Source of the DNA: Blasia pusilla
Taxonomy: Eukaryota
DNA length: 64,000 nt
Reading direction: 5' to 3'
Assembly (NCBI GenBank): GCA_050084515.1
Contig: CM114271.1
Span: forward strand, 14,012,001-14,076,000
The notes beneath the pieces are model-generated. The model was not told where the DNA came from, did not search any database, and saw nothing but the letters and a program-made list of their open reading frames with translations. Positions within the stretch are counted from its first letter, which is position 1, and each line of letters begins with the position of its first letter. The position numbers were made by a program, and so were the translations under genes. Positions 9,107 to 58,506 of the stretch are shown here, one piece after another.

Positions 9107-9490
9107 TGTCACGTATGTTAGGATAGATCAACGAGATCTAGTAGAACACCCTTGAAGATACCGGAGGACAACCTCATGAGTATGAGGATGACATGCTAAG
9201 GCCATGGGTAATCTCAGAGAGCAGGTTTTCCCTTCGTTTGGGCTTATTTGGAGCTATATAGAGAAACTTACCTGAAATACTAAGTTTCTATATTGAGTAT
9301 AGTTGACTGTCCACTTTGGGAAGTGGCCCTTGACCCGCTACAACACGTCAAGAGCCAAGGAGATGACTTGCAAGCATAGGTTACCGTGGAGAGAGCTTGG
9401 GAGAGGGAAGGGGATATACTTCCAAGAGAAAAAGCTTAAGAGCTCATTCTCTCTTTGTTGAACCTCTTGGCATGAGGCGGCGAGCTCTAG
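9107..9490 (+). repeat. Truncated A terminal repeat of the DNMT-retroelement family, interrupted by a second A copy
   Basis: Starts TGTCACGTATGTTAGGATAGATC and matches the A repeats at 16758 and 43169. Confidence 0.8.
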
Positions 9491-12312: not shown

Positions 12313-13250
12313 ATTCGGGTGTTGGATCTCTTTGGAGGGATCAGCACTGGGTTAGCTTCTGTTTTGCACGCTGGAGTGCGCGTGCAGTAGTACCTCTATG
12401 TGGAGATTGATGATGTTATGAGGTGCACTTCACTTCACCATATGGCGTTGTTACGCCTATGTTTTCCCGACTTGTTGTATGCGTCCGCCATTCAGATTAC
12501 CGAGTTCCCTACCGAGGAACATTTCATTGTTGGGGTGCAGGACTTTAGCGGGTAGGGACCATAGACTTGGTGATTGCTATTTGGCAGTGTAAGGGCCAAT
12601 CGAGTGCTAGACGAGGTATCGGATTAGCTGACACTTGGTCCATGTTGTTTTGGGAGATGATGCGGATCTTGCAATATTTACAAGAGCATCAACCTCGTTC
12701 TCCATCATACATTTTGGAGAATGTGCCGATGTTGGGGGATTTGAGGTCCCATGTGGTGACAAATGCACATCAGGTGCGCGCATGGATCGGCCCGGCAATG
12801 TTGTTAGATGCGGCGAGTGTAGCTTCTAGAGCACACGGCCCGTATCTTTGGTGGACTTACTTGGTACCACATGAGGTTTTTGGACGGCGTATGCAAGAGT
12901 GGAGCGTCCCTCCGATTGGTTGGTGGCTTCTATTTTGGATCCGGCCGTCAATCACGAGCGGTGAGGCACGATGATCGACCGCCGTTGATTGTGGTCACAG
13001 ATTGGCATGCCATGAGCGCCTTTCCCACATTGGTGAGTTTTCCGCTTCCTATGCATTCAAGAAGGCCGGACCTAGGTTGGTTAGGGATGACCAGGTACAA
13101 AGGTTGGTGGAGCCCAACGCCAATGAGCGAGAGCGAGCAATGGGATTCCCACAGGAGTGACGGAAGTAACGTCACTATCGAGGCATCACGATGTTATGTC
13201 TTGGGTTAGGCGATGGACCTAAATTGGTTGACATGGATTTTCAGCTTAGG
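12313..13250 (+). pseudogene. C5 cytosine DNA methyltransferase domain (DNMT3-like) in copy A pol
   Basis: IRVLDLFGGISTG (I), YVEIDD (II), IDLVIAIWQCKGQS (degenerate IV), YILENV (VI), AHGPYLWWTYL (VIII), EPNANERERAMGFP (IX), VLG*AMDLNWL (X). Contains stops and frameshifts. Confidence 0.85.
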
Positions 13251-13739
13251 AGTAGCTAAGCGTCGTTTGAGGATGCGACAAATCACAAAAGTTACGTTGG
13301 TGAGCCCCATGCCTACCAAGACGGTTGAGGCAAGGTGGGGCAAGACCCAGCGACATCGACACACCAGAGTGATCGGGAGAGACACCCTTGGACTTCTTAG
13401 GATGTTTTGCGAGTACGCCAGAGATGATAGCCACAAAGATCGGCGTGGTTCCGGGGACTACACGTGGAGATGAAAGATCTATTGTCCGAGACGGGGTTGC
13501 ACCATAGCAACCATCGACATCCGCACCGGAGAGTCCTACCGTAGTCACGATGGAGACTTGGGAGGGAGATATGGGCCCTAAGTTGACATGAGGAGAGCGA
13601 CGTTGGATACACCAGTTTCTTAGGAGTTATAAGAGTTGTTTTGCATTTAGTATGCATGATTTGGGTACGCTGAAGGGTCTAGGGATCCGCATTGAGTTGC
13701 CAAGTGACATGCTCATCGTACGATGACCCTACAAGTACA

Positions 13740-16465
13740 GTGACATGGAGAGGGCTCTGATTCAAAGTAGGAGCCAGGACTTGGTTGGAGCAAGACTAGT
13801 GGAGGTGTCGCATGGAGAGTATGCATCTACCATTGTCATACCCGCCAAGAAGGATGTGCATGGCAGCTGGATGAATAGGCGGATATGTGGAGATAACCGA
13901 CCTATCAATCGGTAGACAAATTCCGATAGGTATGCCATGCCCATCCTTGAGGAGATCTTTGATGCGATTGGGCATGCAAAGGTCTTCAATTCATTGGATT
14001 TGTGAGTCGGATACCATCAAGCGCCTATCAGATTGGAGGGAGGCAAAGACGGCATTTTGGGGCATCCATCCTCACGGGAAGGATTGTTTGTACTAGTGGC
14101 GGTTCTTACCATTCGGGTTAAAGAACGTCCCGGTTGAGTTTGAGAGGGTCATGGATAGGATCTTGGCAGGTCTGGATTTTGCTAGGTGTTATATTCATGA
14201 CATCATAGTCTTGAGCACCACGGTTGAGGAGCATGAGCAACATTTAGAGAAGGTGTTTCGACGATTGCAGTAACATGGGCTGAAGCTACATCCAGGCAAG
14301 TGCAAGTTCTTCTATGACCAGATTGAGTACTTGAGTCATATGATATATCCAAGGGGCCTTGGTGTGCAACATACGAAGGTAGAGGCTATTTCACGCATTC
14401 CACGCCCTACAAATATGAGTCTAGTTTGTGCATTCATGGGATTGGCGAACTTCTATCGATGATACGTCAAGGGTTTCAGTTTGATTGTGAAGCCACGCAC
14501 CTTGATGACCAAGGTGGATCAGGAGTGGCATTGGGAGGGATGAGCAAGAGAGAGCATTAGAGATGCTCAAGGACATACTGACGTCCACGCCCATATTGAG
14601 GAGACCGATCAGGGGGGCATCCTTTCGAGTTGCATACCAATTGGAGCATGTTGGGGCTTGGAGCTATGCTCACCCAGCATGACGATGATGGTAGAGAGTT
14701 CGTGGTGGCTTATGCTAGTCGCTCAAACAACGCTGCAGAGGTGAAGTATAGCTCGTATGAGGTGAGTGCTTGGCTGTAGTGTGGGCTGTCGCACATTTCA
14801 GATCTTATCGATTCGGAAATCCTTTTACCATTATTAATGATCATCAACAACTTAAGTGGTTGATGGAGTCTGACAAGCTTACAGGGAAGCTTGCAAGGTT
14901 GGCTCTTTTGTTGCAAGAGTATGACTTCTACATGGTGCATAGATCTGGGACGCTCAACCCGGATGCAGATGGTTTGAGCCGTAATCCATGCGTGAGTCAG
15001 CAAGATGTGACTAGAGCTCGTTGGCATGGTGAGAGTGATGAGGAGTTGGTGCTAGGATGGCATGCGTCAGCCTATTTGGGCTTATTGGTTATGGAGAGTC
15101 ATATTTCTGAGACTTCGATGGCGAGGTCTGATGGAGAGTCCTTAGATATAGAGGCATGTGAGGAGACGACAAGTAGTCGAGAGATTCACGACGATGGAGT
15201 GCTCTTGGAGTATTTGCGTACTGCCAGCGTCGCGAGCATAATAGGTGTTAGAGTGCGGGATCGGATCCTACAGAGAGCCACTTGGTTCTAGTGGGAGGGC
15301 ACACATGTGTTGCGAGTGTGGAATGATGGTAGAGTGTATGTAGTGCCTCATCCTTTGCAAAGAGCACGTTTGGTGCGTCATACTCATGAGGAGTTGGGTC
15401 ATTTTGGAGTCAAGCGGACGTACAGCTTCCTCCAAATTCAACATTGGTGGCGAGGCATGCAGATTGACGTTCAACAATTTGTTTCCAACTGCATGGTGTG
15501 TGATTGAGTCCGAGCATCGTTCAATGCTCTGACTCCACAGTTGCATCCACTTCCGATCATGGGTTTAGGTTATAGATGGAGTTTGGATTTTGGGAGACCT
15601 TTGCCTTTGACAAAGCGCCATAGTCGTTATGTGTTGGTGATGGTCGAGCACTTCTTGAAGTGGATAGAGTTGGTTGCATTGCCTGACAAAGCGAATGAGG
15701 GAATAGCGTATGCTATCCTAGATTGAGTGCTGAATCATTACGGCGTGCTAGCTAAGGTGTTGACAGACCAGGGTACACAGTTTTGGGGGGAGTTTCAAGC
15801 CTTGTGTGATCAGACACTAATCGACCACCGTACTACTTCGCAAGATCATCCTGAGGCGGATGGACTAGCAGAGCGGATTGTGCATACGGTCAAGAGAGGA
15901 CTACGCAAGTATGGCTTGCAGAAAGGTCACATAGGAGATTGGGACCTTCAGTTTCGGTGGTTGGCAATGGGATACAAATTCAGTAGGCAGGCATCCTTAG
16001 CGTCTTTCTCACCCTATTTGTTGCTTTGTGGCTGAGAGCTAGATTTACCTACGGCCATTCGCCAAGATGTTGGTGAGGTGTTGAACCTTGATGACCCTGA
16101 TGTATGGATGCGAGCATGTTCTCATAGGGATGAGTTGTTTCAGAGAGTGATGCCCATGGCGTTTGAGAACTTGGCGATTGCGCAACATCGAGATACGTTG
16201 AGGTATGCGACTATTAGAGGAGGTGGTTATTGACCTTCTATCCGGAGGTTTCATAAGGGAGACTATTTCTACTTGCGTGCAGACGGTACCCACGACATTG
16301 GATGTGACTGTAGGGTGCACCATCTTGAGAGTGCGTGAGGTTTTGCCATCCGGTGTTCTCTTATTGGAGGGATGCGATTGTATGGTTTGGAAGGACCATG
16401 TGCATAATTGTGCACCATATCATCTTCCAAACATTCACAATGGATGTGTCCCAGATGTACATAGA
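13740..16465 (+). pseudogene. Gypsy-type RT-RNaseH-integrase of copy A; most of the PHD is deleted
   Basis: YIHDIIV (decayed YxDD), DHQQLKWL...LARLALLLQEYDF, HEELGHFG...CMVC, WSLDFG, LTDQG, ADGLAER; ends WMCPRCT*. Confidence 0.9.
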
Positions 16466-17888
16466 GTAGGTAGTTCTATATTCCGACTTGTATCTCAAAC
16501 ATGGATGACAAGAAGGCGACTAACAATGGGGCCACATGAGCACCCGATCTTCTTGCTCTTAGCGTTTGAGAGATTTATGTCATGGTAGGTAGGGATAGAT
16601 GGCTATCTAGAATTAGAGGGACCTAATCAGCTGCCTAGGGGGCAATTGGAGATATTTTGGTACTTCTTGTCTCGTTGTTTGGATACCATGAGTTAGCATG
16701 GGATCGTGCGTGTTTGCGTGTGTATTCGGTGACTATGATGTGTATGCGCATGACAATTGTCACGTCTTTTAGGATAGATCGGTGAGATCTAGAAGAGCGC
16801 CTTTGCGAGTAGTTGAGGATAAACTTAAGAGGTCGAGGATGACATACTGAGGTTCCGAGAAACCTGAGAGAGCAGCTTTCCTCTTCGTTTTGGCTCATTT
16901 GGCGCCATATTGAGAAACTTGGTATTTTAGGTAAGTACCATTTTGAGTATATGATCAAATTTCTATTTTTGTAAAGTAGCCCTTGACTTGCTACATTAGG
17001 TCAAGAGCCAAGGAGGTGACTTGGGAGCATAAGTTTCTATGGAGAAAGCTTGGGAGAAAGGAGGGGTATACCTCAAGGAGAGAGAGCGTGAGAGCTCATT
17101 CCCTCTTTGTTGAACCTCTTAGCATGAGGCGGCGGACCTATGGTCTTGCTTGCCTTGTGTGTGTAATCCAAGCCTCGCATTAGGAGAGTGGGTTTGGCTT
17201 GACATTGAGAGAGACACGTGAGAGTGTACACATGTGAGAATTAGGTGTTGAGAGAAAGAGATTTGATCTTATTTTATTGGAGATATTTTTGTACTTCTTG
17301 TCTCGTTGTTTGGATGCCATGAGTTAGCATGGGATCGTGCGTGTTTGTGTGTGTGTTCGGTGACAGCGATGTATGTTGTGTAACGATGTGTATACGCACG
17401 ATATCCTCCAATAAGAGAACATCGGATGGTAAAACCTCACGCATTCTCAAGATGATGCGCCCTGTAGTCACATCCAATGTCGTGGGTGCCGTCCGCTGCA
17501 AGTAGACATACTCTCCTTGATGAAACCTCCGGATAGTATGTCGATAAACACCTCCCGAATTAGTCGCATACCTCAATGTATCCCGATGTTGCGTAATCGC
17601 CAAGTTCTCAAACGCCATGGACATCAATCTCCAAAACAACTCAGCCCTTTAAGAACATGCTCGCATCCATACATCAGGGTCATCAAGGTTCAACACCTTA
17701 CCAACATCTTGACAAATGGCCGTTTGTAAATCTGGCTCTCGGCCATAAAGTAGCAAGTACGGTGAGAAAGACGCTTAAGATGCATGCCTACTGAATGTAT
17801 ATCCCATCGCCAACCATGGCAACTAGAGGTCCCAATCTCCTACGTGACCTCTCTGTAGGCCAAAATTGCTCAATCCTCTCTTCACCGT

Positions 17889-24300: not shown

Positions 24301-27300
24301 TCCCAAAATGATGTCATGATGATCCTCGTGCCCCTCTCACGTGATCACTCTCAACCTTGCGAGTAATCATTCAATCACTCAAACTAATATGAGGCACTCA
24401 ATCTACACTCTCTCTCATTGAGAAGTGTGTTGTGCGGCAACAAATGGCGTGATGCGGCAAATCAACTACTGTCCTATCATCACATGAACAACACATACCC
24501 TCAACTCTGGACATCCCACATAACTCTATGTCCCCTAAACCCATACATCAACGATGCTCTTAGTATCTGCACGAAACCCAATCTCCCAAATAACTACCCA
24601 ATACCCGGAATTCCCTCATACGTACAAGCAAAAGACTAGAATGGGTAACTTGAACAAATGTCAATCGCTCCTTAGCAACTGCAAACCTCGACCCCAACTC
24701 GGTCGTGATGACAAAATCCTCCAATCAGCAAGTCGCACCCCTCTGGTACTGACGATGCTCAAATCTCTCATTATGCGGTGCGGATCTAACAATACGGTGC
24801 GGATCCAACAATACGGTGCGACACTAGCGGCACGGAACGGCTATAAAATGGCACGACACTCGATAATGGCATGCGGCACTCCGCTGCATATCCTCCTCAA
24901 TTAGCAATACACATGCTCTACACCTTAGTGCAAGAGCGGCTCCACGATTGAGACGATGCGATACGGCCACGAGCGACATGGCGCGGCAATCGGCGGCGCG
25001 TTGTGGCTACGGGCGTCACGGCACGGTACTCGATCATCATCGAGCGGTTACCAATCACAACATAGCATAATGAAATGAAAACTCAAACACCATCCACCAG
25101 AGGTCACCTGCCATCACTAGTTGATGACAAAATTGCGATGACGGCAGCGGCCACAACAAAGTAGGTGGTGGCGGCCCAAGTCAGAGAATCAACAGTCATC
25201 ATGAAAGACCCTCCACACTGTAATGGCAGCCAGCGGCGGACAACGGCCAAACGCATCACTAGGCGACGGGGGTGGCCGACGGTCGACGGCGGACCATTGA
25301 TGGTGACAGAGGATGGTGGACGGTGACGACAGACCATTGACGGTGACTACTGAGGCGACAGCCGCCGCCGCCACGGCGGCTACTTTAGGGTTTGAACAAT
25401 TTTACCCTAAAAATTGCCTAGCAATGACAGTTTTGCAAGATCAACCATAAATTTTTGCTCACAACTCAAAATTACCCATCGTTTCTTCCACAATGTGTAC
25501 AGCTTTGAGATCTACAACATTGTCTAATTTGTTTTTTCATTCGACTTTCCCACAAAAATTGACAGGAACTGTCATGGAGCCCTTCAAATTGGCACTCACG
25601 ACAAAATCGGCAACGCTTCCGCACTTATTTCTTCCACATAAAACTTCAGACCTATAAAATCACAAACCAGCAAGCTACTTGATGCTCCTTAGAGCACTAG
25701 AATGGGAAAAATCCGCTCCCAAACTTCATCTCTAAAGAAATTTGGGCAGCGCTTCCGCGCATCACTCTTCCACACAAAAAATTGGCAATGGAAAACAATA
25801 AAATAAGTAGCGCTTGCTCCGATGAGCACTCCCATGAGCCGTTGAACGGGGAATATGGTTCCAAACCTGCACCAATAGTGTGTAATGAGCGAGCTCCTCT
25901 ATTGAAGCTCTCTCACCCTCCCATTCTCTCTTTGTAAAATAAGGTCAAATCTCTCTCACAACAGCATAGCTCTTACATGTGTGCACTCTCACATGTCTCT
26001 CTCAATGTCAAACCAAAATCACTCTCCGAATGAAAGGCTTGAGTTACACTCACAAGGCAAGGGACCATAGCTCCGCCGCCTCCTACCAAGAGGTTCAACA
26101 AAGAGAGAATGAGCTCTCAAGCTCTCTCACCTTGAGGAATATCGCTCCCCTCTTCCAAGGTCTCTCCATGATAACCTATGCTCTCAAGTCACCTCCTTGG
26201 CTCTTGACTTGATGTAGGAGGTCAATGGCCAATTCCTAAAATAAAAATTCGACCATAGACTCAAAACAGTACTTACCCAAAATAGTAAGTTTCTCAATAT
26301 GGCTCCAAATGAGCCGAAACGAAGGGGAAACTTGCTCTCTCAAGCATCCCAAGGCCTCAGCAGGTCATCCTTAACCTTCTGAGTCTATCCTCCATTACTC
26401 GCAAAGGTGCTCTACTAGATCTCACCGACCTATCCTAAAAGATGTGACAAGATTTTCCAAGCATGGACATGAATATCTCCCCAAAGAAGAAGAAGATTCA
26501 TACAATAGGTGATGTGGCTGGAAGTCTTGGAAGTGCCGGTGGGGTGAACTCAAAGGAACCAATCACAAAAACCAACGGGTAATCTTCCATGAGCAATAAT
26601 TTTTAGATCTTATGTTTTGATACTCGTTGGCTTTACATATTAGATATCCTCTACATTTCCCTACACATGGGTGTATGCCTTGTAGTATTCTTACAATCCA
26701 TAACCAACCAAGTGGCACTTTTGAGATTTTCAAGAAACTTACCAATAGAAGGATGGACCTTCAACCAGGTAACCCAAGTAAATTTGATACTTGCAAATAT
26801 ATCTCAATCATGTACTACCTTACTGTCTACCTTCTATGTGGTCATTGCGATTATGAAATTTGCAGTTGCATGTGGGGGACGAGGTGCATCTCACCCAACC
26901 AAAGCTCAACACGAACATCTTGGGTGTTGGTGTTATTTAAGGCTTGAGTGGTCGTAAGAAGTTCTATGGGAAGGATATTGCCCTTGGTATGGTCCGAGTA
27001 GACCTTAAAAGTACGAAACAACCAGATTACCCGTCATGGGAGATCAATGGAGACGATGATCCACCGCATCATACACTTGGGGATGCACTTGAGAGTGCGA
27101 TCATTTGGCCAGAGTTGAATTTTAAGAAAGCGGTTCATTAGGTAGTAAACTTTCTGTGCTTCCATTAGATAGGAGCCACCAACAAGAATATTTTGCCATG
27201 CTCGAATGATGTTTTCAGTTTGCTATTGTTATATAGTATGCTGAACTCTCAATTACACTTGTGTATTTCAAAATGAATGCATGTTAGATATTTGTTCCTC

Positions 27301-28972: not shown

Positions 28973-29995
<1,023 letters not shown>

Positions 29996-43168: not shown

Positions 43169-46100
43169 TGTTACGTCTTTTAGGATAGATCGATGAGATC
43201 TAGTAGAGCGCCTTCGCAAGTAGTGGAGGACAGACTCAAGAGGTCAAGGATGACTTACTAAGGCCCCGAGAAACGTGAGAGACCAGGTTTCCCCTTCGTT
43301 TCTGCTTATTTGGAGCCATATTGAGGAACTTACTATTTTAGGTAAGTACCATTTTGAGTATATGGTCAAATTTCTATTTTTGGTAAGTTTCCCTTGACCT
43401 CCTACATCAGGTCAAGAGCCAAGGAGGTGACTTGGGAGCATAGGTTACCATGGAGAGAGCTTGGGAGAAGGGAGGGGTATACCTCAAGGAGAGAGAGCTT
43501 GAGAGCTCATTCTCTCTTTGTTGAACCTCGAGGTGGCAAAGCTTTTGTCCCTTGCCTTGTGAGTGTAACCCAAGCATCTCATTAGGAGAGTGGGTTTGGT
43601 TTGATATTGAGAGAGACATGTGAGAGTGCATACATGTGAGAACTATGGTATTGTGAGAGAGATTGGATCTTGATTTACAAATAGAGAATGAGATGAGTGA
43701 GAGAGTTTCATGGGGGAGCTCACTGGTCACTCAATGGTTTTGTAGGTTGGGGATCGTATGCCCCGTTCAGCGGTTCATGGGACTGCTCACCGAAGCCGGA
43801 GCCGCTCATTTTTTATGTTTCCTTTGCCGATTTTTTGTGTGGAAGAGTGCTGCATGGAAGCGCTTCCCAATTTTTGATAGGGATTGAGTATGGGGGCGAA
43901 TTTCTCCATGCTGGTGCTCTCGAGAGCACCATGTAGCTTGCTGATTTTTATTTTCATAGGTTTTACATTTTCGTTGGGAGAAATCAGCGCGAAAGCGCTG
44001 CCAAAATTTATGTAGGAGAAAGTGACGTTGGGCTTTACAACAGTCCCCGTCAGTTTTTACAAGAATGTCCGATTCAAAATATTTTTTAACGCCGTCGTAG
44101 ATCATGAAGCTGTGCAGGTCTGCAATAGACATTGCGCAATTTGGAGTTGTGAGCAAAAATTTATGGTCAATCTCGCAAAATTTCCATTGTTGAGCGATTT
44201 TTAGGGTTAAATTGTTCAAACCCTAAACCAGCCGCCGCGCCGGCGGCGGCCATCGCCGTCATAGTCGCAGTCAACGGTTCGCCTTCGACGAAAATTGGCA
44301 CTGTTGACGGTCAACCGTAATAGTCAATGGTCAACCGTCACTATCAACGGTCAATCGTCAATGTCAACGGTCCACCGTCGGCCGCTGCTTCCGCCTAGCG
44401 CTCCTTAGAGCCGCGTTCGTCTGTTGTCCACCCTTGGTTTCCATTGCCACCATTACGGAGTGGAGGGTCTTCCACAACGACCGTTGATTCTCTGACTTGC
44501 ATCGCCGCCACGTACTTTGTTTTGGCCGCCACCGTTATCGCAGTTCGTCATCAACGAGTGATGGTAGGTGAACTCGGGTTATGGCGTTTGAGTTTTTATT
44601 TCATGCTGCTATGTTGTGATTGGTACCCGCTCGATGATGATCGACTACTATGCCGTGACGCCCGTAGCCGCAACGCGCCGCTGATTGCCGCGCCGTGCCG
44701 CTCGTGGCCACACTGCACCGTCTCGATCACGGAGCCGCTCCTTCACTAAGGAGCAAATCGTGTGAATTTCTGATTGAGGAGGGTATGCCGCCGAGTGCCG
44801 CACCCCATTCTCGAGAGCCGTGTCGTGTATAGTCGTTCCGTGCCGCTAGTGCCGCACCGGACCGCTATACTTGCCCTGCACATTGAGGAGGTTTGAGCAA
44901 TGTCAGTACGAGAGGAGTACGACTTGCTGATTGGAGGAGTTGTCTTCACGACCAAGTTGGGGTTGAGATTTGCAATTTCCGAGGAGTGACATCGACATAA
45001 TTTCCAGGTTACCCATTCTGGTTTTATTCCCTGCACGTGTGAGGGATTTTCGGCTATTGGGAAGTTATTTAGGATATTGGGTTTTGTGCTGATGCTAGGA
45101 GCATCGATGATGTATGGGTTTAGGGGACATAGATATGTGTGGGATGTCGAGAGTTGAGGATGGTTTGGCGATGAGACGATAAATCAGTTGATTTGCCGCA
45201 CCACGCTGCTTGTTGCCGCACAACACACGTCTCACTAAGAGAGTGTAGATTGAGTGGCGCATGTTTAGTTTGAGTGATTGAGGGATTATTCGAGAGATTG
45301 GGAGTTATCGTGTAAGAGGAGCATGAGGGGCACGAGGGCCATCACTACGTCCTTTCGAGATTTTGAAAGGCGAGGTAGTGGACCTGAGAGTAGCGCTAGA
45401 GGGTTTACCCGGAGTGGTGCGAGGTTTTGAGGGTCTCCACACGCACGCGAGAGACCACTTCGATCTCAATCTGTGTCGTCTTCTGACAAAGGGGAGCGTG
45501 TAGAGGAGTGTGTTAGTGATCCACCGTACATATTGAGTGGTCCTACCAGTTGGGCGTATGAGATGGACGACCGAGATAGAGGACCGCATAGGTTTTCGGG
45601 TGCTGTAGGCACTATAGTGCTACACGACTTCATTGTAGAGTTTAGGAGTTGGTGTGACTCACAACGGGCTAGGAACTCTAGAGAGTTCAACCCGTTTACA
45701 ACATGGAACAGTATGTTCGAGCATTTAGAGGGGGCGCCCATGGACGATTACCATGAGTTCTCCCATATATATGCCCAGGAGATTGAGGCATGGTGACTCT
45801 ACTATGACCCACACTATGTGTCATGGACGGAGATGTTCCCAGATGAGGAGGAGGAGCCAAGAGAGGCTACTTCCTCTTCCACTAGTGATGTTTTAGGAGG
45901 GGTCACTCGCACTGGAGCTATTGCACCATCTAGTCGGGTTCGTCCCAGATTCAACCCTGTGGTTGAGTTCTTCGCTGAGTTGAGGGCGAGCCACCAGGGT
46001 ACAGACGGAGAAGTTGCGGAGCATCCACGACTTCCAGAGGCGGCCGGGTGAGAGTTTTTGTGAGGCTTACACTTGCTTGCGCCGGTTGATCAACGTCACT

Positions 46101-50115: not shown

Positions 50116-51068
50116 TGTTGTGCGCATACACATCGCTACACAATATACATCGTTGTCACCGAACACACACATAAACACACACAATCCCATGCTAGCTCAT
50201 GACATCCAAACAACGAGACAAGAAGTACCAAAATATCTCCAATTAAAATAAGATCCAATCTCTCTCACAACAGCATAGTTCTCACATGTGTGCACTCTCA
50301 CATGTCTCTCTCAATGTCAAACCAAACCCACTCTCCTAATGAGAGGCTTGGGTTACACACACAAGGAAAGCAAGACCATAGCTCCGTCGCCTCATGCCAA
50401 GAGGTTCAAAAAAGAGAGAATGAGCTCTCAAGCTCTCTCTCCTTGAGGTATACCCCTCTCCTCTCCCAAGCTCTCTCCATGGTAACCTATCCTCCCAAGT
50501 CACCTCCTTGGATCTTGACTTGATGTAGGAGGTCAAAGTCCACTTACCAAAAATAGAAATTTGATCATATACTCAAAATGGTACTTATGTAAAATAGTAA
50601 GTTCCTTAATATGGCTCCAAATGAGCCAAAACGAAGGGGAAACATGGTCTCTCAGGTTTCCTGGGGCCTCAGCAGGTCATCCTCGACCTATTGAGCCTGT
50701 CCTCCACAACTCACAAAGGCGCTCTACTAGATCTCACCGATATATCCCTAAAGACATGATAGCAGTCTTGCATATATATATTGCTACACAACATACATCC
50801 GTGTCATCGAACACACACACTAAGACGCATCCCATGCTAACTCATGACATCCAAACAACGAGACAAGAAGTACCAAAATATCTCCAATCACCCCCCTAGC
50901 TGGTGATTAGGTACCTCTAACTCCAGATAGCCGTCTATCCCTACCTACCATGACATACATCTCTAGGACGCTAAGAGCAAGAAGGTGGGGTGGTCATGTG
51001 GCCCCATCATTAGTCGTCTTCTTGTCATTCATATCACAGATACAAGTGGGAATGTAGAACTATCTTTT

Positions 51069-52450
51069 CTATGTACATCTGGGACGCATCCATTTTCCTT
51101 GAGGAACCCTAGTGAGAGGTGGCGTCAAACATGCCATATGCCATCCTCTCGAACTCCTATCATAGACTAGCATAGTGGCTGCACCACGGGCGGAACAACA
51201 CAACATACACCGTAAGCCTGTAGGAACTATTGCTAGGCTCGGATCAACTGTACCTTCAATGTTCACAAGATGACATAGTGCACAGTTACGCACATGGTCC
51301 TTCCAAACCATACCATCGCGTCCCTCCAATAAGAGAACACCGGATGGCAAAACCTCACGCACTCTCAAGATGGTGCGCCTTGTAGTCACATCCAATGTTG
51401 TGGGTGCCGTCTATTGCAAGTAGACATAGTCTCCCTGATGAAACCTCTGGATAGTAGGTTGATCATCACCTACTCAAATAGTCGCATACCTCAACGTATC
51501 CCGATGTTGCGCAATCGCCAAGTTCTCAAACGTCATGGGCATCACTCTCCGAAATAACTTAGTCCTCTGAGAACATGCTCACATCCATACATCAGGGTCA
51601 TCAAGGTTCAACACCTCACCAACATCTCGACGAATAGCCGCAGGCAAATCCGGCTCTCGGCCATAAAGCAATAAGTAGGGTGAGAAAGACGCTAAGGATG
51701 CCTGCCTGCTGAATCTGTATCCCATCGCTAACCACGGCAACTGAAGGTCCCAATCTCCTTGGTGACCTCTCTGCAAGCCATATTTGCGTAGTCCTCTCTT
51801 CAACGTCTGCACAACCCGTTCTGCTAGGCCATCCGCCTCAGGATGATTCGCGAAGTAGTGCGTTGGTCGATCAGCGCCTGATCACACAAGGCCTGAAACT
51901 CCCCGCAGAACTCTATATCCTAGTCTGTCAACACCTCAGCTAGTGCGCCGTAATGACTCAACACTCGATTTAGGAAGGCATACGCTACTCCCTCACTCGC
52001 TTTTTCGGGCAATGCAACCAACTCTATCCACTTCGAGAAGTGCTCGACCATCACCAACACATAACGACTTTGGCACTCCGTCAAAGGCAAAGGTCCTGCA
52101 AAATCCAAACTCCATCTATAACCTAAACCCATGATCAGAAGTGGATGGAACTGTGGAGTCAAAGCATTGAACGATGCTCGAAATCAATCACATACCATAC
52201 ATCTGGCAACAAACTGTTGAACGTCAGTCTGCATGCCTCGCCACCAATACTAAATCTGGAGCAAGCTGTACGTCCGCTTCACTCCAAAATGACCCAACTC
52301 CTCGTGGGCATGACGCACCAAACGTGCTCTCTGCGAAGGATGAGGCACTACACGCACTCTACCATCCTCCCACACTCCCAACACATGTGTGGTCTCCCAC
52401 TAGAACCGTCTGGCTAGCTGGAGGATGCGATCCCGGTCTCTAGCACCCAC
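51069..52450 (-). pseudogene. DDE integrase with C-terminal PHD finger (copy C)
   Basis: HEELGHFG...CMVC, WSLDFAGP, VLTD, ADGLAER, then CMLC...MLVYDRSSRGWHMACLTPPLTRVPQGKWMRPRC. Confidence 0.88.
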
Positions 52451-52546
52451 TGTGCTTGCGACGGTCCCAATACACAGGTATTCCAAGACCACTCCATTGT
52501 CGTGAATGTCTGGGCCATGTGTTATCTCCCCACCGACCTCTGGATC

Positions 52547-53948
52547 TTAGGACTCTCCATCAGACCTCGCCATCGAAGTCTCAGCAATCTGGATCTCCAT
52601 AGCCAATAAGTCCAAATAGGCTAACATATGCCATCCTGGTACCAACTCCTCCTCACTCTCACCATGCCAACGAGCTCGAGTCGCATCTTGCTCACTCGGG
52701 CACGGGTTACGGTTCCAACCATCTGCATCCTGGTTGAGCATCCCAGGTCTATGCACCACTTGGAAGTCATACTCCTACAACAAAAGAGCCCACCTCGCAA
52801 GCTTCCCTATGAGCTTTTTGGACTCCATCAACCACTTAAGTGGCTGATGATCAGTAATGATGGTAAGGGGATTGCCGAATAGATAACATCCGAAATGTGC
52901 GACAGCCCACACTACAGCCAAGCACTCACCCTCATAGGAGCTATATCTTGCCTCTGTAGCGTTGTTCGAGCGACTAGCATAAGCCACCACGAACTCTCTA
53001 CCATCATCGTCATGCTGGGTGAGCACGACTCCAAGCCCCAACATGCTCTAATCGGTATGCAACTGGAAAGGACGCCCCCTGATCGGTCTCCTCAATATGG
53101 GCCCGGACGTTAATCTCTCTTTGAGCATCTGAAATACTCTCTCTTGCTCATCCCCCCAAGTGCCACTCTTGATACACCTTGGTCATCAAGGTTAGCGGCT
53201 TCGCAATTGAACTGAAACCCTTGACGTATCGTCGATAGAAGTTCGCCAATCCCATGAATGCACAAACTCGACTCACATCTGTAGGGCGTGGAATGCGTGA
53301 GATAGCCTCTACCTTCGTATGTTGCACACCAAGGGCCCCAGGGTATATCGTATGACCCAAGTATTCAATCTGGTCGTAGAAGAACTTGCACTTGCCTGGA
53401 TGTAGCTTCAGCCCATGTAACTGCAATCGTCGAAACACCTCCTCTAAATGTCGCTCATGCTCCTCAACCGTGGCGCTAAAGACTACGATGTCATCAATAT
53501 AACACCTAGCAAAATCCAGACCTGCCAAGATCCTATTTATGACCCTCTGAAACTCATCCGGGGCGTTCTTTAACCTGAATGGTAAGAACCGCCACTCGTA
53601 CAAAAAATCCTTCTCGTGAGGATCGATGCCCCAAAATGCCGTCTTCTGCCTGTCCTCCAATCTGATAGGCAACTGATGGTATCCGACTCGCAAATCCAAT
53701 GAACTGAAGACCTTTGCATGCCCAATTGCATCAAAGATCTCCTTAGGGATGGGCATGGCATACGTATCGAACTTGGTCTGCCGATTGATAGGTTGATAAT
53801 CTCCACACATTCGCTTATCCGCCCAGTTGCCATGCACATCCTTCTTGGCGGGCATGACAGTGGCAGATGCATACTCTCCATGCGACATCTCCACTAGTCC
53901 CACTCCAACCAAGTCTTGGCTCCTACTGTGAATCAGAGCCCTCTCCAT
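52547..53948 (-). pseudogene. Ty3/gypsy-type reverse transcriptase and RNase H (copy C)
   Basis: RMCGDYQPIN, FSSLDLRVGYHQL, KTAF, LPFRLKNAP, YIDDIVVFS, VVAYASRS..YSSYEGECLAVVWAV, TDHQPLKWL. Confidence 0.95.
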
Positions 53949-54469
53949 GTCATTGTACCTGTAGGGTAGTCAGAAGATCAGCATGTCACTCGACAACTCA
54001 ATGCGGATCCCTGGACCCTTCAGCGTACCCAAATCATGCATACTAAATGCAAAACAATTCCTATAACTCCTAAGGAACTGGTGTATCCGACGCCGCTCTC
54101 CTCCTGTCAACTTAGGGCCCACATATGGCTCACAAGAAGTCCTATCGTAGTCTCCATCGTGACTACGATAGGACTCTCCGGCGCGGATGTAGGTGGTTGC
54201 TATGGTGCAACCCCGTCTCGGACAATAGAACTCTCATCTCCATATGGAGTATCTGGAACCACACTTGATGCTGTGGCTATCATCTCTTGGCATACCTGCA
54301 AAACATCCCAAGAAGTCCAAGGTTGTCTCTACCGATCACCCCTGGTGTGTCGATCTCCTCCGATCTCACCCCCAGCCGTTGCCTCAATTGTCTCGGTAGG
54401 CATGGGGCTTACCAACGCAATAGTTGTGATTTGTCGCATCTTCAAACGATGTTGTTCAGCTACCCCTAA

Positions 54470-55414
54470 GGTGAAAATCCATGTCAAGCAGTTCAGGTCC
54501 ATCGCCTGACCCAAGACATGACCTCGTGATGCCTCTGATAGTGATGGTACTACCATCACTTCTATGGGGAATCCCATCATTCGCTCTCGCTTATCGGCGT
54601 TGGGCTCCACCAACCTCTATACTTGGTCATCCCAAACCAAGCCAGGTCCGACCTCCTTGAATGCATAGGAAGCGGGAAAACTCACAAATGTGGGAAAGGC
54701 TGCCCGTGGCCTACCAATCCTTTTGACCACAGTCAACAGTGGTTGATCATCTAGCCTCATTGCCTCTGATCGACGGCCCGGATCCAATATAGAATCCACC
54801 AACAAATTGGAGGGGCGCTCCACTCTCGCATATGCCCTCCGTAACACCTCGTGTGGTACCAAGTTGGTCCACCAAAGATGCGGGCGATATGCTCGTGAAC
54901 CCACACTTACGGCATCTAACAATACTGCCGGGCCAATCCATGCGCGCACCTGATGTGCACTCGTCACCACGCAGGATCTTGAATCGCCCAAAATTGGTAC
55001 ATTCTCCAAAATGTATGTTGGAGAACGAGGGTGATGCTCCTATAAATGTCGCAAGATCCGCATCATCTCCCACAACAACCTGGACCGAGTGTCAGCTAAC
55101 CCGCTACCTCGTCCAGCACTCGATTGGCCCTGACACGGCCAACCATCAATTACCAAGTCTATGGTCCTTACGCGCTCCAAGTCCTGCGCCCCCAACAATG
55201 AAATATCCCTCGGTAGGCAACTCTGGTGACTGTGAATGGCGGACGCAGATAACAAGTCGGGAAAACGGAGGCATAACAACGCCACATGGTGAAGTGAAGC
55301 GTGCCTCGCAACATCATCAATCTCCACATACAAGTACTGCTGCACGCGCACTCTAGCGTGCAAAACAAGAGCTAACCCAGTGCCGATCCCTCCAAGAGAT
55401 CCAACACCCAAATA
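54470..55414 (-). pseudogene. C5 cytosine DNA methyltransferase domain (DNMT3-like) of copy C, with intact catalytic PCQ
   Basis: VLDL/GGIGTG (I, frameshifted), YVEIDD (II), IDLVIDGWPCQGQSSAG (IV), LENV (VI), AYRPHLWWTNL (VIII), EPNADKRERMMGFP (IX), RGHVLGQAMDL (X). Confidence 0.92.
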
Positions 55415-55999
55415 CCCTTCTCTGCGATGCACCACACAATTGGGGCGGTGTCCAAAGGGGTCATAGCAACAGTCGTGCCTACTTGGGGTTCCTATGATCC
55501 GTCACGCTCTTGTGCAAACGTCTTGCTCCATGCGGTTTGCACATGCTTAGGGGCTAAGCGTCAAAGCTCCTCAATCAAGCCCCAAAGCGGCACCTCTCCT
55601 CCACGGACTAATACGGCTACCATGACACTCCTCTGCATAGAAATTTCAGGAACGGGAGTATCCTCTGTATGGACATGTCCCTCAATCAAATCACTAGGCC
55701 AAGTGATGGCACTGCTAAATGCTGCTAAGGTCGCCATCTCTCTTGGCCGTCGCTCGATCACTGCACCTATGAATCGCACAGGTAATGAGCTAAGGCGCCC
55801 ATCACTTGACTGCCATCCTGGTCTATAGGACGCTGACTCCTCCCAATAATCCAAGGAAAACCCCATCGGGTAAAACACTGCTCCACCAACCAAGATGTCG
55901 TAGGACTCTGCATCAGTCACTCCATCAACTGGAAGACATCTCCCCGGTTATCTTGCAACACAACATCACGAGAAACCATGGCACGCTCTATCACCGGTC

Positions 56000-58110
56000 T
56001 AGCGGGCATCTCCGCCATCGTAGCAGCCGCAGCCTGCCATGAATATAACGTGGATGGCCCGAGCATCCGCTCCAAGCGTAGGTACATCACCTCCTCTCAC
56101 CTCAGAACGTGATGTAGGAACTCCAACTCCATGCTCACATAGCGTAGCGGCCAGCCCAAAGACCTCGGCGGGCATACCTCCCAACGTCATAACATCAGAA
56201 GCAAAAAATAAAGGAGCGCGGTACACAACGGTGGACGCCCCCAATAACGTGCTCGACGCATGCCCCTCTTGAGCATCAACAATAGGAGTCATCGCACTCG
56301 ATTCTCCTATCGCCCTCGGTGCTTGGACACCAACAACATCACCAACTCTCCAGGAACTCTGATCAGGACCCATCGATGGGGTCCTCATCGCCTCGGACAA
56401 CGTGAAAGACTAAGGAAGCCTAGTCTGTTTGTTGGCTTCCCCTTGCTGTGGATCCAACTCTGTGGCTGCTCCACACATCACAACTACGGCGGCCTCCACT
56501 TGGGCAACCCCACACATCTAACCAGGATCCTCCATATGTTTGGAAGCTCCATATGATGTCGATGCCACGGATCCGGCATCGGGTAATGCCATAGCGAAAA
56601 TCTGCTCATGTGGTTGATATATCTAAGCAACCATCCTAGCCTCACGCCTGACATCTTCCTCGACGCGTCTAGGTGGTGGGACTCTACTTCCTCCACGGGC
56701 AGCTCCATCACCCTGTCCAAAAACTCCAGCTCCTCGTCCACCAACGGGGCTATCTGGTGCACGATCTCTTGACCCACCTGGACCGGCTACTTGTTGTGCT
56801 GCCCTCTCTGGCCCTCCGTCGGGACGTAACTCAGGATGTAAACTGAAACACCTGGCACGTGTATGAACATACCTTTGACAATAGTCACATTGATAACCTC
56901 CTGGTTCAGCACCATCTCCTCCTCCATGCTGAGGCACACGTCCATGACCCTGAAGGGTGCAATCACGCTGACGATGGGCTCCACCACATGACCAACAAGT
57001 AATCGTAGGCAGCTGCTGCTGAGCCGCATATGAAGGTGCAGGTCTCTGTGGCACGACCTTTCGATATCCTCTGTGAGCTTGTGGTGCCACAGTCAACCTA
57101 TCTCAGAGTCCACGTTGCTGCACAGGTGGTGTAGACAATCGTGACTACTCTCGCCCAGAACCCATGATGGCTACGCTCTCCTCCGCCATGTTGCGCTCAA
57201 TGTTCTTGGCGGTCCTAAAACCATCTCTCAACGTAGGGGAGGTGTTCATAAGAAGCACCCCTCTCGTATCTGTCTCCGCAAGGTCCAGTCCAACATCGCA
57301 TACCATGACTAGATAGCCTAAGCCTCTGTCAACCCCTGAGTGACGTTGATCAACCGGCGCAAGCGAGTGTAAGCCTCACACAAACTCTCATCCGGGTGCC
57401 TCTGGAAGTTGTGGATGCTCCGCAACTTCTCCGTCCATACACCCTGGTAGCTCATCCTCAACTCAACGAAGAACTCAACCACGGGGTTGAATCTGGGACG
57501 AACCCGACTAGATGGTGCAACTGCTCCAATGCGAGTGAACCCTCCTAAAACATCACTAGTGGAAGAGGAAGTAGCCTCTCTTGACTCCTCCTCCTCATCT
57601 GGGAACCGCTCTGTCCATGACACATAGTGTGGGTCATAGTAGAGTCGCCATGCCTCAATCTCCTAAGCATATCTATGGGAGAACTCATGCTAATCGTCCA
57701 TGGGCGCCCCCTCTAAATGCTCAAACATATTATTCCATGTTGTAAACGGGTTGAACTCTCTAGAGTTCCAAGCCCGCTATGAGTCACACCAACTCCTAAA
57801 CTCCGCAATGAAGTCGTGTAGCTCTATAGTGCCTATAGCACCCGAAAACCTATGCGGTCCTCTACCCCGGTCGTCTATCTCGTATGCCCAACTGGTAGGA
57901 CCACTCAATGTGTAGGGTGGATCACTAACATGCTCCTCTAAATGCTCCCCCTGGTCTGAAGACAACAGAGAAGGAGATTGAGGTGGTCTCTCACGTGGAG
58001 ACCCTTGAAACCTCGTACCACTCCGGGTAAACCCTTCATAGCTACTCTCAGGTCCACTACCTCGCCTCTCAAAATCCCGAAAGGGATGCGTGATGGCCCT
58101 CGTGCCCCTC
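56000..58110 (-). pseudogene. Gag-like region with two zinc knuckles (copy C)
   Basis: CWSCGGAHRQRDC and CDYCQRYVHTRARC, plus a retrotransposon-gag-like FQRHPDESLCEAYTRLRRL segment; frameshifted. Confidence 0.75.
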
Positions 58111-58194
58111 TCACAAGATCACTCTCCATCTCACGAGTAACCCCTCAATCACTCAAACTAAACATGCGGCACTCAATTTACACTTTCTCACTGA

Positions 58195-58506
58195 TGTGGA
58201 AAACTGCTAAACAAGCATGACTTGTGGAAAACGGCTCTCACAAACACACACCACTATGGAGAACAAAATTTGCAATGAGAGAATGATTGGAGGCTGGTCC
58301 TCTTCTCAATTATATAGGGTATGTACAAGCAACCCTTACCCTATCCTTAACCATAGTCTTGAGTTAGCCTAATTGTGATTAACTAACCCTAGTTAAGATA
58401 ATCGTGCTTAACTGACTAACCAAGATTAAGCTTCCCTACTTCGTGTGAGTGCCAAATGTAGCAGTTCAGGTGTCTTATGAGCTTGACTGTAACTCAATCT
58501 TCAATA
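58195..58506 (-). repeat. Copia 3' LTR
   Basis: Direct repeat of 63155-63466, about 15 substitutions by manual count. Confidence 0.95.

What the first reader, a model, noticed from the sequence alone, without database searches (positions are those of the whole stretch)
50116..50899. Split direct repeats (A1...B1-A2-B2) in place of LTRs on an element with a DDE integrase
Seen: every 5' end (9491, 26449 minus, 43169) is a ~510-bp A repeat running straight into the same leader (...TTTA|CAAA.AGAGA). Both 3' ends (16645-17403; 50888-50116 minus) are B(~110-130 bp)-A-B. No 5' end carries B. Known: the A1..B1A2B2 layout is typical of tyrosine-recombinase retrotransposons (PAT/TOC1, Ngaro). Here the RT is gypsy-like, the integrase is HHCC-DDE, and I see no tyrosine recombinase. 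Inference: a gypsy lineage with a non-standard replication route. Caveat: no single copy in the window is certainly intact end to end.
Basis: partly seen in the sequence, partly recalled or inferred. Interest (0 to 1): 0.85.

Follow-up and report, generated by a model that had tools for sequence, protein, structure and literature searches.

The report
Gypsy retrotransposon with split direct repeats
This is the tail of an old copy of a 'gypsy' jumping gene whose end repeats are laid out A...B-A-B instead of as two identical LTRs, a layout noted once before in a green alga and seen here across a whole bryophyte-type family that is inserted by an ordinary integrase.

Summary
Window 50116-50899 (minus strand) is PPT-B1-2 bp-A2-B2, the 3' end of a degraded copy of a high-copy Ty3/gypsy family. 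The family encodes gag-PR-C5 DNMT, then RT-RNaseH-H2C2/DDE integrase-PHD. A second 3' end (16645-17403) has the same layout. All four 5' ends start with A alone.

No tyrosine recombinase was found. Among 80 related metagenome loci, 15 of 27 evaluable ones show B-A-B and 9 show a single B. None carries B at a 5' end.

Eight complete relatives end 5'-TG...ACA-3'. Six of the eight have exact 4-bp target-site duplications outside A1 and the last B, against 12 of 3120 in offset controls. So a DDE integrase inserts the whole unit.

A polypurine tract always abuts B1, and B2 starts at that same nucleotide. B-nn-A therefore behaves as an LTR by reverse-transcription landmarks, and the inserted copy is a circular permutation of it. 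This is inference.

Reads from the same species give heterogeneous flanks at both termini and strand-consistent RNA.

The layout is already in print for KnitGypsy-Dnmt3 of Klebsormidium (de Mendoza 2018, Fig. 4c legend). This is a new member of a known kind, and its replication route is still unexplained.

The parts
50116..50243 (-). B2 of copy c4, the right terminus of the element; ends ...ACA at 50116
   Evidence: In one search, 1446 DNA reads have loose ends with heterogeneous flanks (agreement 0.36) at 50116.
50244..50761 (-). A2 of copy c4, the internal copy of the ~510-bp A repeat
   Evidence: 87.1% identical to A1 of c3.
50762..50763 (-). 2-bp spacer between the end of B1 and the start of A2
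   Evidence: The same 2-bp spacer is seen in c1 (16756-16757) and in relatives.
50764..50888 (-). B1 of copy c4
   Evidence: 82.0% identical to B2 of c4.
50891..50898 (-). Polypurine tract (TAGGGGGG), 2 nt upstream of B1
   Evidence: A purine run abuts B1 in 16 of 16 elements printed.
50899..58193 (-). Internal part of copy c4, degraded (97 stops in one frame). Pfam positions: DNA_methylase 54977-55207, RVT_1 53346-53798, RT_RNaseH 52769-53074, Integrase_H2C2 52181-52339, rve 51851-52120. PHD-like C-terminus within 51072-51410. The copy continues at 63467-64000 after a copia insertion.
   Evidence: stop count; Pfam; 63% identity to the PHD end of P0004; DNMT tblastn 54647-55345, 57.5%; continuity.
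16636..17403 (+). Second 3' end (copy c1): PPT 16636-16642, B1 16645-16755, spacer 16756-16757, A2 16758-17276, B2 17277-17403
11805..16635 (+). Internal part of copy c1 (DNMT to integrase-PHD), 86.6% identical to c4
   Evidence: (11807-16435 against 55921-51258).
43169..43677 (+). A1 of copy c3, the left terminus (starts TGT), followed by leader and gag. The copy is truncated at 50112, where c4 abuts it.
   Evidence: In one search, 630 DNA reads have heterogeneous flanks (agreement 0.34) at 43169.
25935..26449 (-). A1 of copy c2, a left terminus. The copy runs to 17405, where c1 abuts it.
9491..10009 (+). A1 of a diverged copy (72-76% identical to the other A copies)
9107..9490 (+). Partial A (first 384 bp), directly abutting the A that starts at 9491

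Best explanation
SHOWN. The region is the 3' terminal block (PPT-B1-2 bp-A2-B2) of a decayed copy of a very abundant Ty3/gypsy retrotransposon family. Near-intact relatives encode ORF1 = gag-protease-C5 DNA methyltransferase, then an in-frame stop, then ORF2 = RT-RNase H-H2C2/DDE integrase-PHD finger. Inserted copies start with A (5'-TG...), end with B (...ACA-3') and are flanked by 4-bp target-site duplications. So the whole unit A1...B1-A2-B2 is inserted as one piece by the element's own DDE integrase, not by a tyrosine recombinase. A second inserted form, A...B with a single B, also has 4-bp duplications.

INFERRED. In terms of reverse-transcription landmarks, the unit B-nn-A is an LTR. Its left edge is the nucleotide after the polypurine tract, where plus-strand DNA starts. 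Its right edge is where A1 meets the leader, where minus-strand DNA should start. The A2|B2 junction is therefore 'end of LTR joined to start of LTR', that is, joined cDNA ends. The B|A junction (ACA-nn-TGT) is an internal site at which the integrase cuts.

On this reading, the integrated copy is a circular permutation of a canonical BA-internal-BA cDNA. The cDNA ends are first joined, either as a 2-LTR-type circle or by end-to-end template switching. The integrase then opens the B|A site next to the leader, giving A-int-B-A-B. Cutting a one-LTR circle, or both sites, gives the single-B form A-int-B; that form could equally arise later by B1 x B2 recombination. An RNA running from inside A1 to inside A2 would then be an ordinary R-U5...U3-R genome and would suffice for the next cycle.
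For: Domains: one search gives DNA_methylase 4.2e-09, RVT_1 1.8e-25, RT_RNaseH 3.9e-34, Integrase_H2C2 2.7e-16 and rve 1.5e-08 on c4 read with X at stops. One search gives the same set plus PHD (2.6e-10) on near-intact L001. L001 and L002 have one in-frame stop between the ORFs.

No recombinase: 0 Pfam families at E<=1 in six frames of the 5' 4.3 kb of c3 and c2. None at E<=0.1 in the L001 and L002 ORFs.

Family-wide layout: of 80 loci, 27 were evaluable. Of those, 15 show B-A-B, 9 show PPT-single B-flank, 1 (L001) shows PPT-B1-nn-A2 up to the contig end, and 2 are unreadable. L064/L066 is one more B-A-B locus. No locus has B beside a 5' A (37 of the 80 loci self-BLASTed).

Target-site duplications: exact 4/4 in L070, L028 and L038, 3/4 in L015, 2/4 in L066. 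Exact 4/4 in L007, L008 and L021. That is 6 of 8, against 12 of 3120 offset controls.

Repeat ages agree within elements. A1/A2 versus B1/B2 identities are 90.1/92.2, 77.7/77.1, 84.4/85.4, 88.1/95.7 and 85.2/86.2 %.

PPT position: a purine run lies within 0-4 nt of the start of B1 in 16 of 16 elements, and B2 starts at the same nucleotide (±3) in 14 of 14.

B|A junction: it reads ACA-nn-TGT in near-intact L001 and L002 and in c1.

Same species, genome-wide: DNA reads have heterogeneous flanks at 43169 (630 reads, agreement 0.34) and at 50116 (1446 reads, 0.36). Agreement at internal break points is 0.84-0.92. About 480 DNA reads join B-end to A-start.

RNA: three runs lie on one strand relative to both oppositely oriented copies, for example 83.8 against 7.9 on c3 and 110 against 10 on c4 in X20. 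Depth is continuous across B1-A2 (93-190).
Against: No copy in the window is complete, so the duplications come from relatives in metagenome contigs of unknown hosts, not from this genome.

No tRNA-type primer binding site (TGG...) follows A1 in any element I read, so the minus-strand start is assumed, not seen.

The A2|B2 junction is the same, apart from point changes, in 6 of 6 independent copies of one subfamily (L011, L012, L015, L031, L068, L070). This fits inheritance through an RNA template at least as well as de novo end joining in every cycle.

The circle model predicts a second permutation (A-B-A-int-B), which I did not see in any locus.

Rough arithmetic on the bins puts RNA depth over B2 at about 67-150, comparable to A2. 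This hints that transcripts run into B2, which the model does not need. B reads cannot be assigned between B1 and B2.

Short reads cannot tell a B2|A1 circle junction from the genomic B1|A2 junction.
Confidence: 0.6

Rival explanations
1. DIRS-like rebuilding without joined ends. The RNA runs from inside A1 to inside B2. The internal B1-nn-A2 block serves as the template from which the missing outer part of A1 and the missing outer part of B2 are recopied, as the ICR does in DIRS-1. The product is a linear double-stranded A...B-A-B that the DDE integrase inserts by its physical ends. The A2|B2 junction is an old LTR-LTR junction that is now simply inherited through the RNA.
For: The layout is the same as in PAT, Ngaro and Toc elements (passages of PMC4157794 and PMC7192593). 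The A2|B2 junction is constant in 6 of 6 copies of one subfamily. RNA depth over B2 is comparable to that over A2 (rough). The alternative permutation is absent.
Against: It leaves the strictly conserved polypurine tract at the left edge of B1 without a role in defining an end of the inserted DNA. It needs precise stops at the A start and the B end, for which no primer site is visible. The single-B form with target-site duplications then has to be secondary recombination in 9 of 27 loci.
Confidence: 0.3
2. An ordinary LTR retrotransposon (LTR = A) in which B2 is a chance local duplication, an assembly artefact or a later rearrangement.
For: The copies in the window are old and rearranged. A has TG at its start, like an LTR.
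Against: The same B-A-B is seen in two independent window copies and in 15 of 27 evaluable loci from several assemblies. The duplications lie outside B2, not outside A2. There is no purine tract directly before A2. 1446 raw DNA reads of the species end the homology at the B end.
Confidence: 0.03
3. B-A-B, or A2-B2, is a separate small element that repeatedly inserted at the tail of a gypsy element.
For: An A-B unit has TG...CA ends of its own.
Against: The 4 bp before A2 and the 4 bp after B2 do not match exactly in any of 4 elements read by eye (L028 matches 3 of 4). The left flank of A1 matches the right flank of B2 instead. The A1/A2 and B1/B2 ages agree within each element. B1 starts at the polypurine tract in every element.
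Confidence: 0.02

Closest known systems
KnitGypsy-Dnmt3 of Klebsormidium nitens (de Mendoza et al. 2018, Nat Commun 9:1341, PMC5890265; section 9 and the Fig. 4 legend read)
   Same: A gypsy domain set with a Dnmt3-type C5 methyltransferase in the polyprotein. [quoted passage not shown]
   Different: Host: the closest proteins to the window are from liverworts (Calypogeia fissa 72-77%, Marchantia polymorpha 70%), not from a charophyte. The passages I read give no target-site duplications, no PPT position, no junction anatomy, no PHD finger (the term 'PHD' has 0 occurrences) and no replication model. The supplementary figures were not available to me. I had no KnitGypsy sequence, so I could not compare it directly.
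PAT / Toc / Ngaro tyrosine-recombinase retrotransposons (DIRS order)
   Same: Split direct repeats A1...B1-A2-B2 in which the internal block repeats the two termini side by side (PMC4157794 and PMC7192593, passages).
   Different: Those elements encode a tyrosine recombinase and, from my own knowledge of the Wicker classification, make no target-site duplication. This family has an H2C2/DDE integrase, 4-bp duplications, TG...CA ends and a polypurine tract.
Canonical Ty3/gypsy elements (chromoviruses)
   Same: Gene order PR-RT-RNase H-IN; a gag with a CCHC knuckle (seen by eye); a polypurine tract; TG...CA ends; short target-site duplications. The next-best protein hits are chromodomain gypsy elements at about 40% identity.
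   Different: No pair of identical terminal LTRs. A PHD finger replaces the chromodomain. A DNMT lies between PR and RT. No tRNA-type primer binding site is evident.
Cleavage of the palindromic LTR-LTR junction of retroviral 2-LTR circles by integrase
   Same: An integrase acting on an internal CA-nn(nn)-TG junction rather than on free DNA ends. This is what the permuted-LTR reading requires.
   Different: In retroviruses it is a side reaction at the joined physical ends. Here the cut site would be a built-in junction inside the LTR, and the joined physical ends would be carried along as A2|B2.

Membership tests
Ty3/gypsy (Metaviridae) LTR retrotransposons | RT-RNase H-integrase order, with RVT_1, RT_RNaseH, Integrase_H2C2 and rve domains | tested here: met
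   window copy c4; L001 ORF2. All are above the Pfam cut-offs.
Ty3/gypsy (Metaviridae) LTR retrotransposons | Aspartic protease upstream of RT | tested here: inconclusive
   Asp_protease_2 scores 22.4 bits in L001 and 22.0 in L002, below the 24.3 cut-off. No hit in the degraded window copy.
Ty3/gypsy (Metaviridae) LTR retrotransposons | Two identical long terminal repeats in direct orientation | tested here: not met
   A is at the 5' end and B-A-B (or a single B) at the 3' end. No locus has the same repeat unit at both ends.
Ty3/gypsy (Metaviridae) LTR retrotransposons | TG...CA termini and a 4-6 bp target-site duplication | tested here: met
   6 of 8 complete relatives have exact 4-bp duplications (controls 12 of 3120). 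Not testable on the incomplete window copies.
Ty3/gypsy (Metaviridae) LTR retrotransposons | Polypurine tract at the left edge of the 3' repeat, and a tRNA primer binding site after the 5' repeat | tested here: inconclusive
   The PPT is present but sits before B1, not before A2. No TGG-type site follows A1 (by eye).
DIRS order (PAT, Toc, Ngaro) | Split direct repeats A1...B1-A2-B2 | tested here: met
DIRS order (PAT, Toc, Ngaro) | Tyrosine recombinase ORF | tested here: not met
   no Phage_integrase-type hit in the window copies or in near-intact L001 and L002.
DIRS order (PAT, Toc, Ngaro) | Integration without a target-site duplication | tested here: not met
   4-bp duplications are present.
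KnitGypsy-Dnmt3-like lineage | C5 DNA methyltransferase inside the gypsy coding region | tested here: met
   (PF00145, 36.7 bits, cut-off 22); (DNMT hit in 18 of 24 loci searched and in the window).
KnitGypsy-Dnmt3-like lineage | DIRS-like repeat structure together with gypsy domains | tested here: met
   the published description was read.
KnitGypsy-Dnmt3-like lineage | Common descent with the Klebsormidium elements (RT or DNMT phylogeny) | not tested
   No KnitGypsy sequence was at hand.

The most novel reading that the evidence does not exclude
A DDE-integrase retrotransposon lineage of streptophytes has converged on the DIRS/PAT repeat logic. Its LTR (B-nn-A) carries a built-in copy of an integrase recognition junction. 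The cDNA ends are joined, and the integrase opens the joined form at the internal junction, so the provirus is a circular permutation of the cDNA. Split direct repeats would then be a consequence of how reverse transcripts are closed and reopened, independent of which enzyme (tyrosine recombinase or DDE integrase) does the insertion. Integrase cleavage of an internal junction would be an obligatory step rather than a side reaction.
Probability: 0.3. Interest if true: 0.8.

Novelty: new member of a known kind. Interest (0 to 1): 0.5.

Why it matters
The combination of gypsy proteins and DIRS-type repeats has had one line in a figure legend since 2018. My searches found no follow-up (term 'KnitGypsy-Dnmt3': only the original paper among the 1 paper listed; none of the 8 and 2 papers listed describes it by title or abstract).

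This window shows that the lineage is abundant and transcribed in a liverwort-type genome. The relatives supply what the legend lacks: target-site duplications that assign insertion to the DDE integrase, the position of the polypurine tract, and the anatomy of the two junctions.

That turns 'odd repeats' into a testable question: how can a retrotransposon regenerate non-identical ends with an ordinary integrase? It also gives an independent system for testing the long-standing, largely untested model of how split or inverted repeats rebuild DIRS-type elements.

The element-borne DNMT and PHD finger add a link to host chromatin, in self-methylation and in target choice.

Tried and rejected
1. 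Whole genome: none is held, so no census of full-length copies in this genome was possible.

2. Tyrosine recombinase: sought in six frames of the 5' 4.3 kb, in c4 and in the L001/L002 ORFs. None was found. The degraded window copies lower sensitivity; the near-intact relatives do not.

3. Primer binding site: by eye, no TGG-type site follows A1. I considered the start of B (it contains a conserved GGT.TAC motif) as a primer site, but could not match it to a tRNA end. Left open.

4. Idea that the internal junction is systematically TA/TA while the termini are TG/CA (seen in several old copies). Dropped, because near-intact L001 and L002 read ACA-nn-TGT.

5. A2-B2 as a separate insertion: rejected (see rivals).

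6. A PHD regular expression on the window found nothing, because two zinc ligands are mutated. The alignment to P0004 shows the homology.

7. Sequencing runs: no RNA holder was listed among the indexed runs. Raw RNA runs of the same species label were laid instead.

8. The read lay could not separate a B2|A1 circle junction from the genomic B1|A2 junction, and its 277-bp bins cannot place transcript starts or ends. An RNA-enriched joint 50168-50829 (14, 17 and 21 RNA reads against 2 DNA reads) and a joint 50762-50120 with 5 extra letters (13, 52 and 21 RNA reads against 7 DNA reads) probably come from particular expressed copies. I could not interpret them further.

9. Earlier findings of the scan: two look-ups returned nothing.

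10. The script flagged L016 and L018 as B-A-B. On inspection these are a single-B end and an interrupted end, and I counted them so.

11. The supplementary figures of PMC5890265 (Supplementary Figs 13-14) may hold more on KnitGypsy structure. They were not available.

Full report
What is in the window

The window is repeat-rich eukaryotic DNA. A self-BLAST resolves four decayed copies, about 80-88% identical to each other, of one retrotransposon family.
- c1: plus strand, 3' part 11805-17403.
- c2: minus strand, 26449 down to 17405.
- c3: plus strand, 43169-50112.
- c4: minus strand, from beyond 64000 down to 50116.

c1 and c4 have complete 3' ends. Each abuts an oppositely oriented, truncated copy (c2, c3) at a different internal position, as expected for nesting in a repeat cluster.

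The region left of 11805 is a patchwork:
- a partial A at 9107-9490;
- a diverged A plus leader at 9491-10478 (72-76% identical to the other copies);
- an inverted internal fragment at 10758-11618.

The observation

- In c4 the order on the element strand is: purine run 50898-50891, B1 50888-50764, two bases, A2 50761-50244, B2 50243-50116.
- In c1 it is: purine run 16636-16642, B1 16645-16755, two bases, A2 16758-17276, B2 17277-17403.

A starts with TGT at 9107, 9491, 26449 and 43169, behind four unrelated flanks. After A comes the same purine-rich leader at 9491, 26449 and 43169. The only B copies in the window are the four at the two 3' ends.

Coding content

With stops read as X, c4 gives these Pfam hits: DNA_methylase (C5), RVT_1, RT_RNaseH, Integrase_H2C2 and rve. 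The C-terminus aligns at 63% identity with the PHD-finger end of protein P0004, with two zinc ligands mutated.

The 5' 4.3 kb of c3 and c2 gives no Pfam family at E<=1 in six frames. A CCHC knuckle is visible by eye in the translations.

The best protein relatives of the RT ORF are from liverworts: Calypogeia fissa at 72-77% and Marchantia polymorpha at 70%, the latter annotated with PF00145. An unnamed 1516-aa protein (P0016) carries DNMT-RT-RNase H-IN-PHD in one chain. The next tier of hits is chromodomain gypsy elements at about 40% (72 proteins at E<=1e-10 among 1533 candidates).

Relatives

A profile of 11 of these proteins recovered 80 metagenome loci (552 pattern matches, 406 confirmed, the best 80 kept).

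Two loci are nearly intact. L001 has a 1369-aa ORF and a 1047-aa ORF in the same frame, separated by one stop. L002 has the same stop. Pfam gives:
- ORF1: weak aspartic protease and DNA_methylase.
- ORF2: RVT_1, RT_RNaseH, Integrase_H2C2, rve and PHD.
- No recombinase at E<=0.1.

I classified the 3' ends of all 80 loci and re-read the negatives.
- 43 loci: the pol match stops short of the C-terminus.
- 10 loci: fewer than 700 bp downstream.
- 27 loci: evaluable.

Of the 27 evaluable loci:
- 15 show PPT-B1-A2-B2 (L011, L012, L015, L028, L031, L032, L034, L036, L038, L043, L045, L057, L059, L068, L070);
- 9 show PPT-single B-unrelated flank (L007, L008, L016, L019, L021, L044, L046, L052, L065);
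- L001 shows PPT-B1-nn-A2 up to the end of its contig;
- L018 and L020 are unreadable.

L064/L066 add one more B-A-B locus.

Several loci are the same sequence from different assemblies. L043=L045, L057=L059 and L064=L066 are shown. L031 and L032, and L044 and L046, print identical strings. L036 and L038 are probably the same. That leaves about 12 distinct B-A-B loci and 8 distinct single-B loci.

In the 37 of the 80 loci that I self-BLASTed, no locus has B beside a 5' A and none has an ordinary pair of identical terminal repeats.

How it is inserted

Eight relatives have both ends in one contig. Boundaries were fixed by the TG that aligns with the A2 start and the ACA that aligns with the B1 end. 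The 4 bp outside A1 and outside the last B compare as follows.

Exact matches:
- L070: AATC
- L028: TAGT
- L038: CATA
- L007: TACA
- L008: TACA
- L021: TGTT

Inexact:
- L015: AACA against AATA (3 of 4)
- L066: TCTT against TCCC (2 of 4)

In controls with the two 4-mers slid by up to 12 bases, 12 of 3120 pairs match exactly.

Within each B-A-B element the A1/A2 and B1/B2 identities agree (90.1/92.2, 77.7/77.1, 84.4/85.4, 88.1/95.7, 85.2/86.2 %). Both pairs were therefore made at the time of insertion.

This is the signature of a DDE integrase inserting one linear piece that runs from the A start to the B end.

Evidence from the same species

Three RNA runs and one DNA run carrying the same species label as the best holders were laid on 43000-51300.

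DNA depth is several hundred to 1667 with about 1% of the run read, so the family is very abundant.

DNA reads lose homology at 43169 (630 reads) and at 50116 (1446 reads) into heterogeneous sequence (agreement 0.34 and 0.36). At internal break points of these particular copies the loose ends agree (0.84-0.92). About 480 DNA reads join B-end to A-start. Hence the A start and the B end are the termini genome-wide.

RNA reads lie almost entirely on one strand relative to the element on both oppositely oriented copies. This means sense transcripts if the libraries are of the usual kind, in which the first mate reads the strand opposite to the RNA. Coverage runs without a gap through B1 into A2.

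Anatomy that bears on mechanism

In 16 of 16 elements printed, a purine run of the type (A/T)AGGGGGG lies within 0-4 nt of the first base of B1. It is preceded by a conserved GGGACCT-type block. In 14 of 14 elements, B2 begins at that same nucleotide (±3), directly after the T-rich end of A2.

The end of A is also where A1 passes into the leader. In reverse-transcription terms, the left edge of B is where plus-strand DNA starts, and the right edge of A is where minus-strand DNA should start. B-nn-A is thus an LTR by its landmarks, and A2|B2 is an LTR end joined to an LTR start.

The other junction, B|A, reads ACA-nn-TGT in the near-intact L001 and L002 and in c1. It is a side-by-side copy of the two termini that carry the target-site duplications.

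The inserted element is therefore a circular permutation of a canonical BA-internal-BA cDNA, opened at an internal integrase-type junction.

Proposed route (inference)

- An RNA from inside A1 to inside A2 is an ordinary R-U5...U3-R genome.
- Reverse transcription gives BA-int-BA.
- The ends are joined.
- The integrase opens the B|A site next to the leader.

The single-B form would come from one-LTR circles, from cutting at both sites, or from later B1 x B2 recombination. These cannot be told apart here.

Points against are listed in the Against line. In short: no visible primer binding site; an invariant A2|B2 junction in 6 of 6 copies of one subfamily; no copy of the alternative permutation; and RNA depth over B2 similar to that over A2.

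These points favour the main rival, a DIRS-like rebuilding of both ends from the internal B1-A2 block with the A2|B2 junction inherited through the RNA. I put about 0.4 on the joined-ends route as such, about 0.3 on the rival, and about 0.9 on the shown part.

What is known

De Mendoza et al. 2018 (PMC5890265; section 9 and the Fig. 4 legend read) describe KnitGypsy-Dnmt3 of Klebsormidium nitens. It is a gypsy element with a Dnmt3-type methyltransferase in its polyprotein. They state that its repeat structure is that of a DIRS element while its domains are those of gypsy.

The passages I read give no duplications, no junction anatomy and no mechanism.

Full-text searches turned up the following.
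- 'KnitGypsy-Dnmt3': only that paper.
- 'split direct repeats' + gypsy + integrase: 8 papers listed, none on such an element by title or abstract.
- Marchantia/gypsy/methyltransferase terms: 2 papers listed, the original and one on viral gene transfer.

The split-repeat layout itself is textbook for PAT, Toc and Ngaro elements (passages of PMC4157794 and PMC7192593). Those elements use a tyrosine recombinase.

Verdict

The finding is real and correctly described, but its central point is already in print for a charophyte. What is added here:
- a bryophyte-type host, with high copy number and transcription;
- the PHD finger;
- the in-frame stop between the two ORFs in near-intact relatives;
- the 4-bp duplications that assign insertion to the DDE integrase;
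- a second, single-B inserted form;
- the PPT and junction anatomy that recasts the layout as a permuted LTR.

It is a new member of a known kind, of moderate interest, with an open and testable mechanism.

Noticed in passing
window 54647-55345 (-) in c4; c1 about 12549-12971 (+): The element carries a C5 cytosine DNA methyltransferase domain (PF00145). It is 57.5% identical to the DNMT part of a Marchantia polymorpha protein. In near-intact relatives it lies in ORF1, after the protease.
   Followed up: partly
window 51072-51410 (-); L001 ORF2 residues 990-1034: The integrase ends in a PHD finger where chromoviruses have a chromodomain (PF00628 2.6e-10 in L001). The window copy aligns at 63% identity with P0004 but has two zinc ligands mutated. 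This suggests targeting by histone-tail reading.
   Followed up: partly
L001 5083-5085; L002 4661-4663: A single in-frame stop separates gag-PR-DNMT from RT-RNase H-IN-PHD in both near-intact relatives. This suggests stop-codon read-through for Pol expression.
   Followed up: no
window 17872-19131, 20067-21344, 47602-48884: A 1.28-kb repeat is inserted three times into copies of the gypsy family. 665 DNA reads skip it at 47601-48882, so most family copies lack it. It is strongly transcribed (RNA depth up to 199). RNA loose ends beside it contain a purine run and a TGGTATCAGAGC string, the initiator-Met primer site as I recall it, so it looks like a solo LTR of another retrotransposon.
   Followed up: partly
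window 58194-63466 (-): A Ty1/copia element (Retrotran_gag_2, gag_pre-integrs, rve, RVT_2) with ordinary 313-bp LTRs, 95% identical, is inserted into c4. It is a conventional LTR element in the same window, for contrast. Its target-site duplication was not worked out.
   Followed up: partly
L007, L008, L016, L019, L021, L044/L046, L052, L065: A second inserted form of the family has A at the 5' end and a single B at the 3' end, with no A2-B2. It has exact 4-bp duplications in 3 of the 3 loci that hold both ends. In the window's species, 55 DNA reads join B1 to B2 in register (50183-50829).
   Followed up: partly
window 28004-28403 and 29575-29879: Tandem arrays are present: 40-bp units at 28004-28403 and about 50-80-bp units at 29575-29879. 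They lie in the AT-rich stretch between the element clusters.
   Followed up: no
window 17403/17405 and 50112/50116: Both complete 3' ends abut an oppositely oriented, truncated copy of the same family, at different internal positions. This fits preferential nesting of the family into itself or into the same chromatin. The other halves of the interrupted copies are not in the window.
   Followed up: partly
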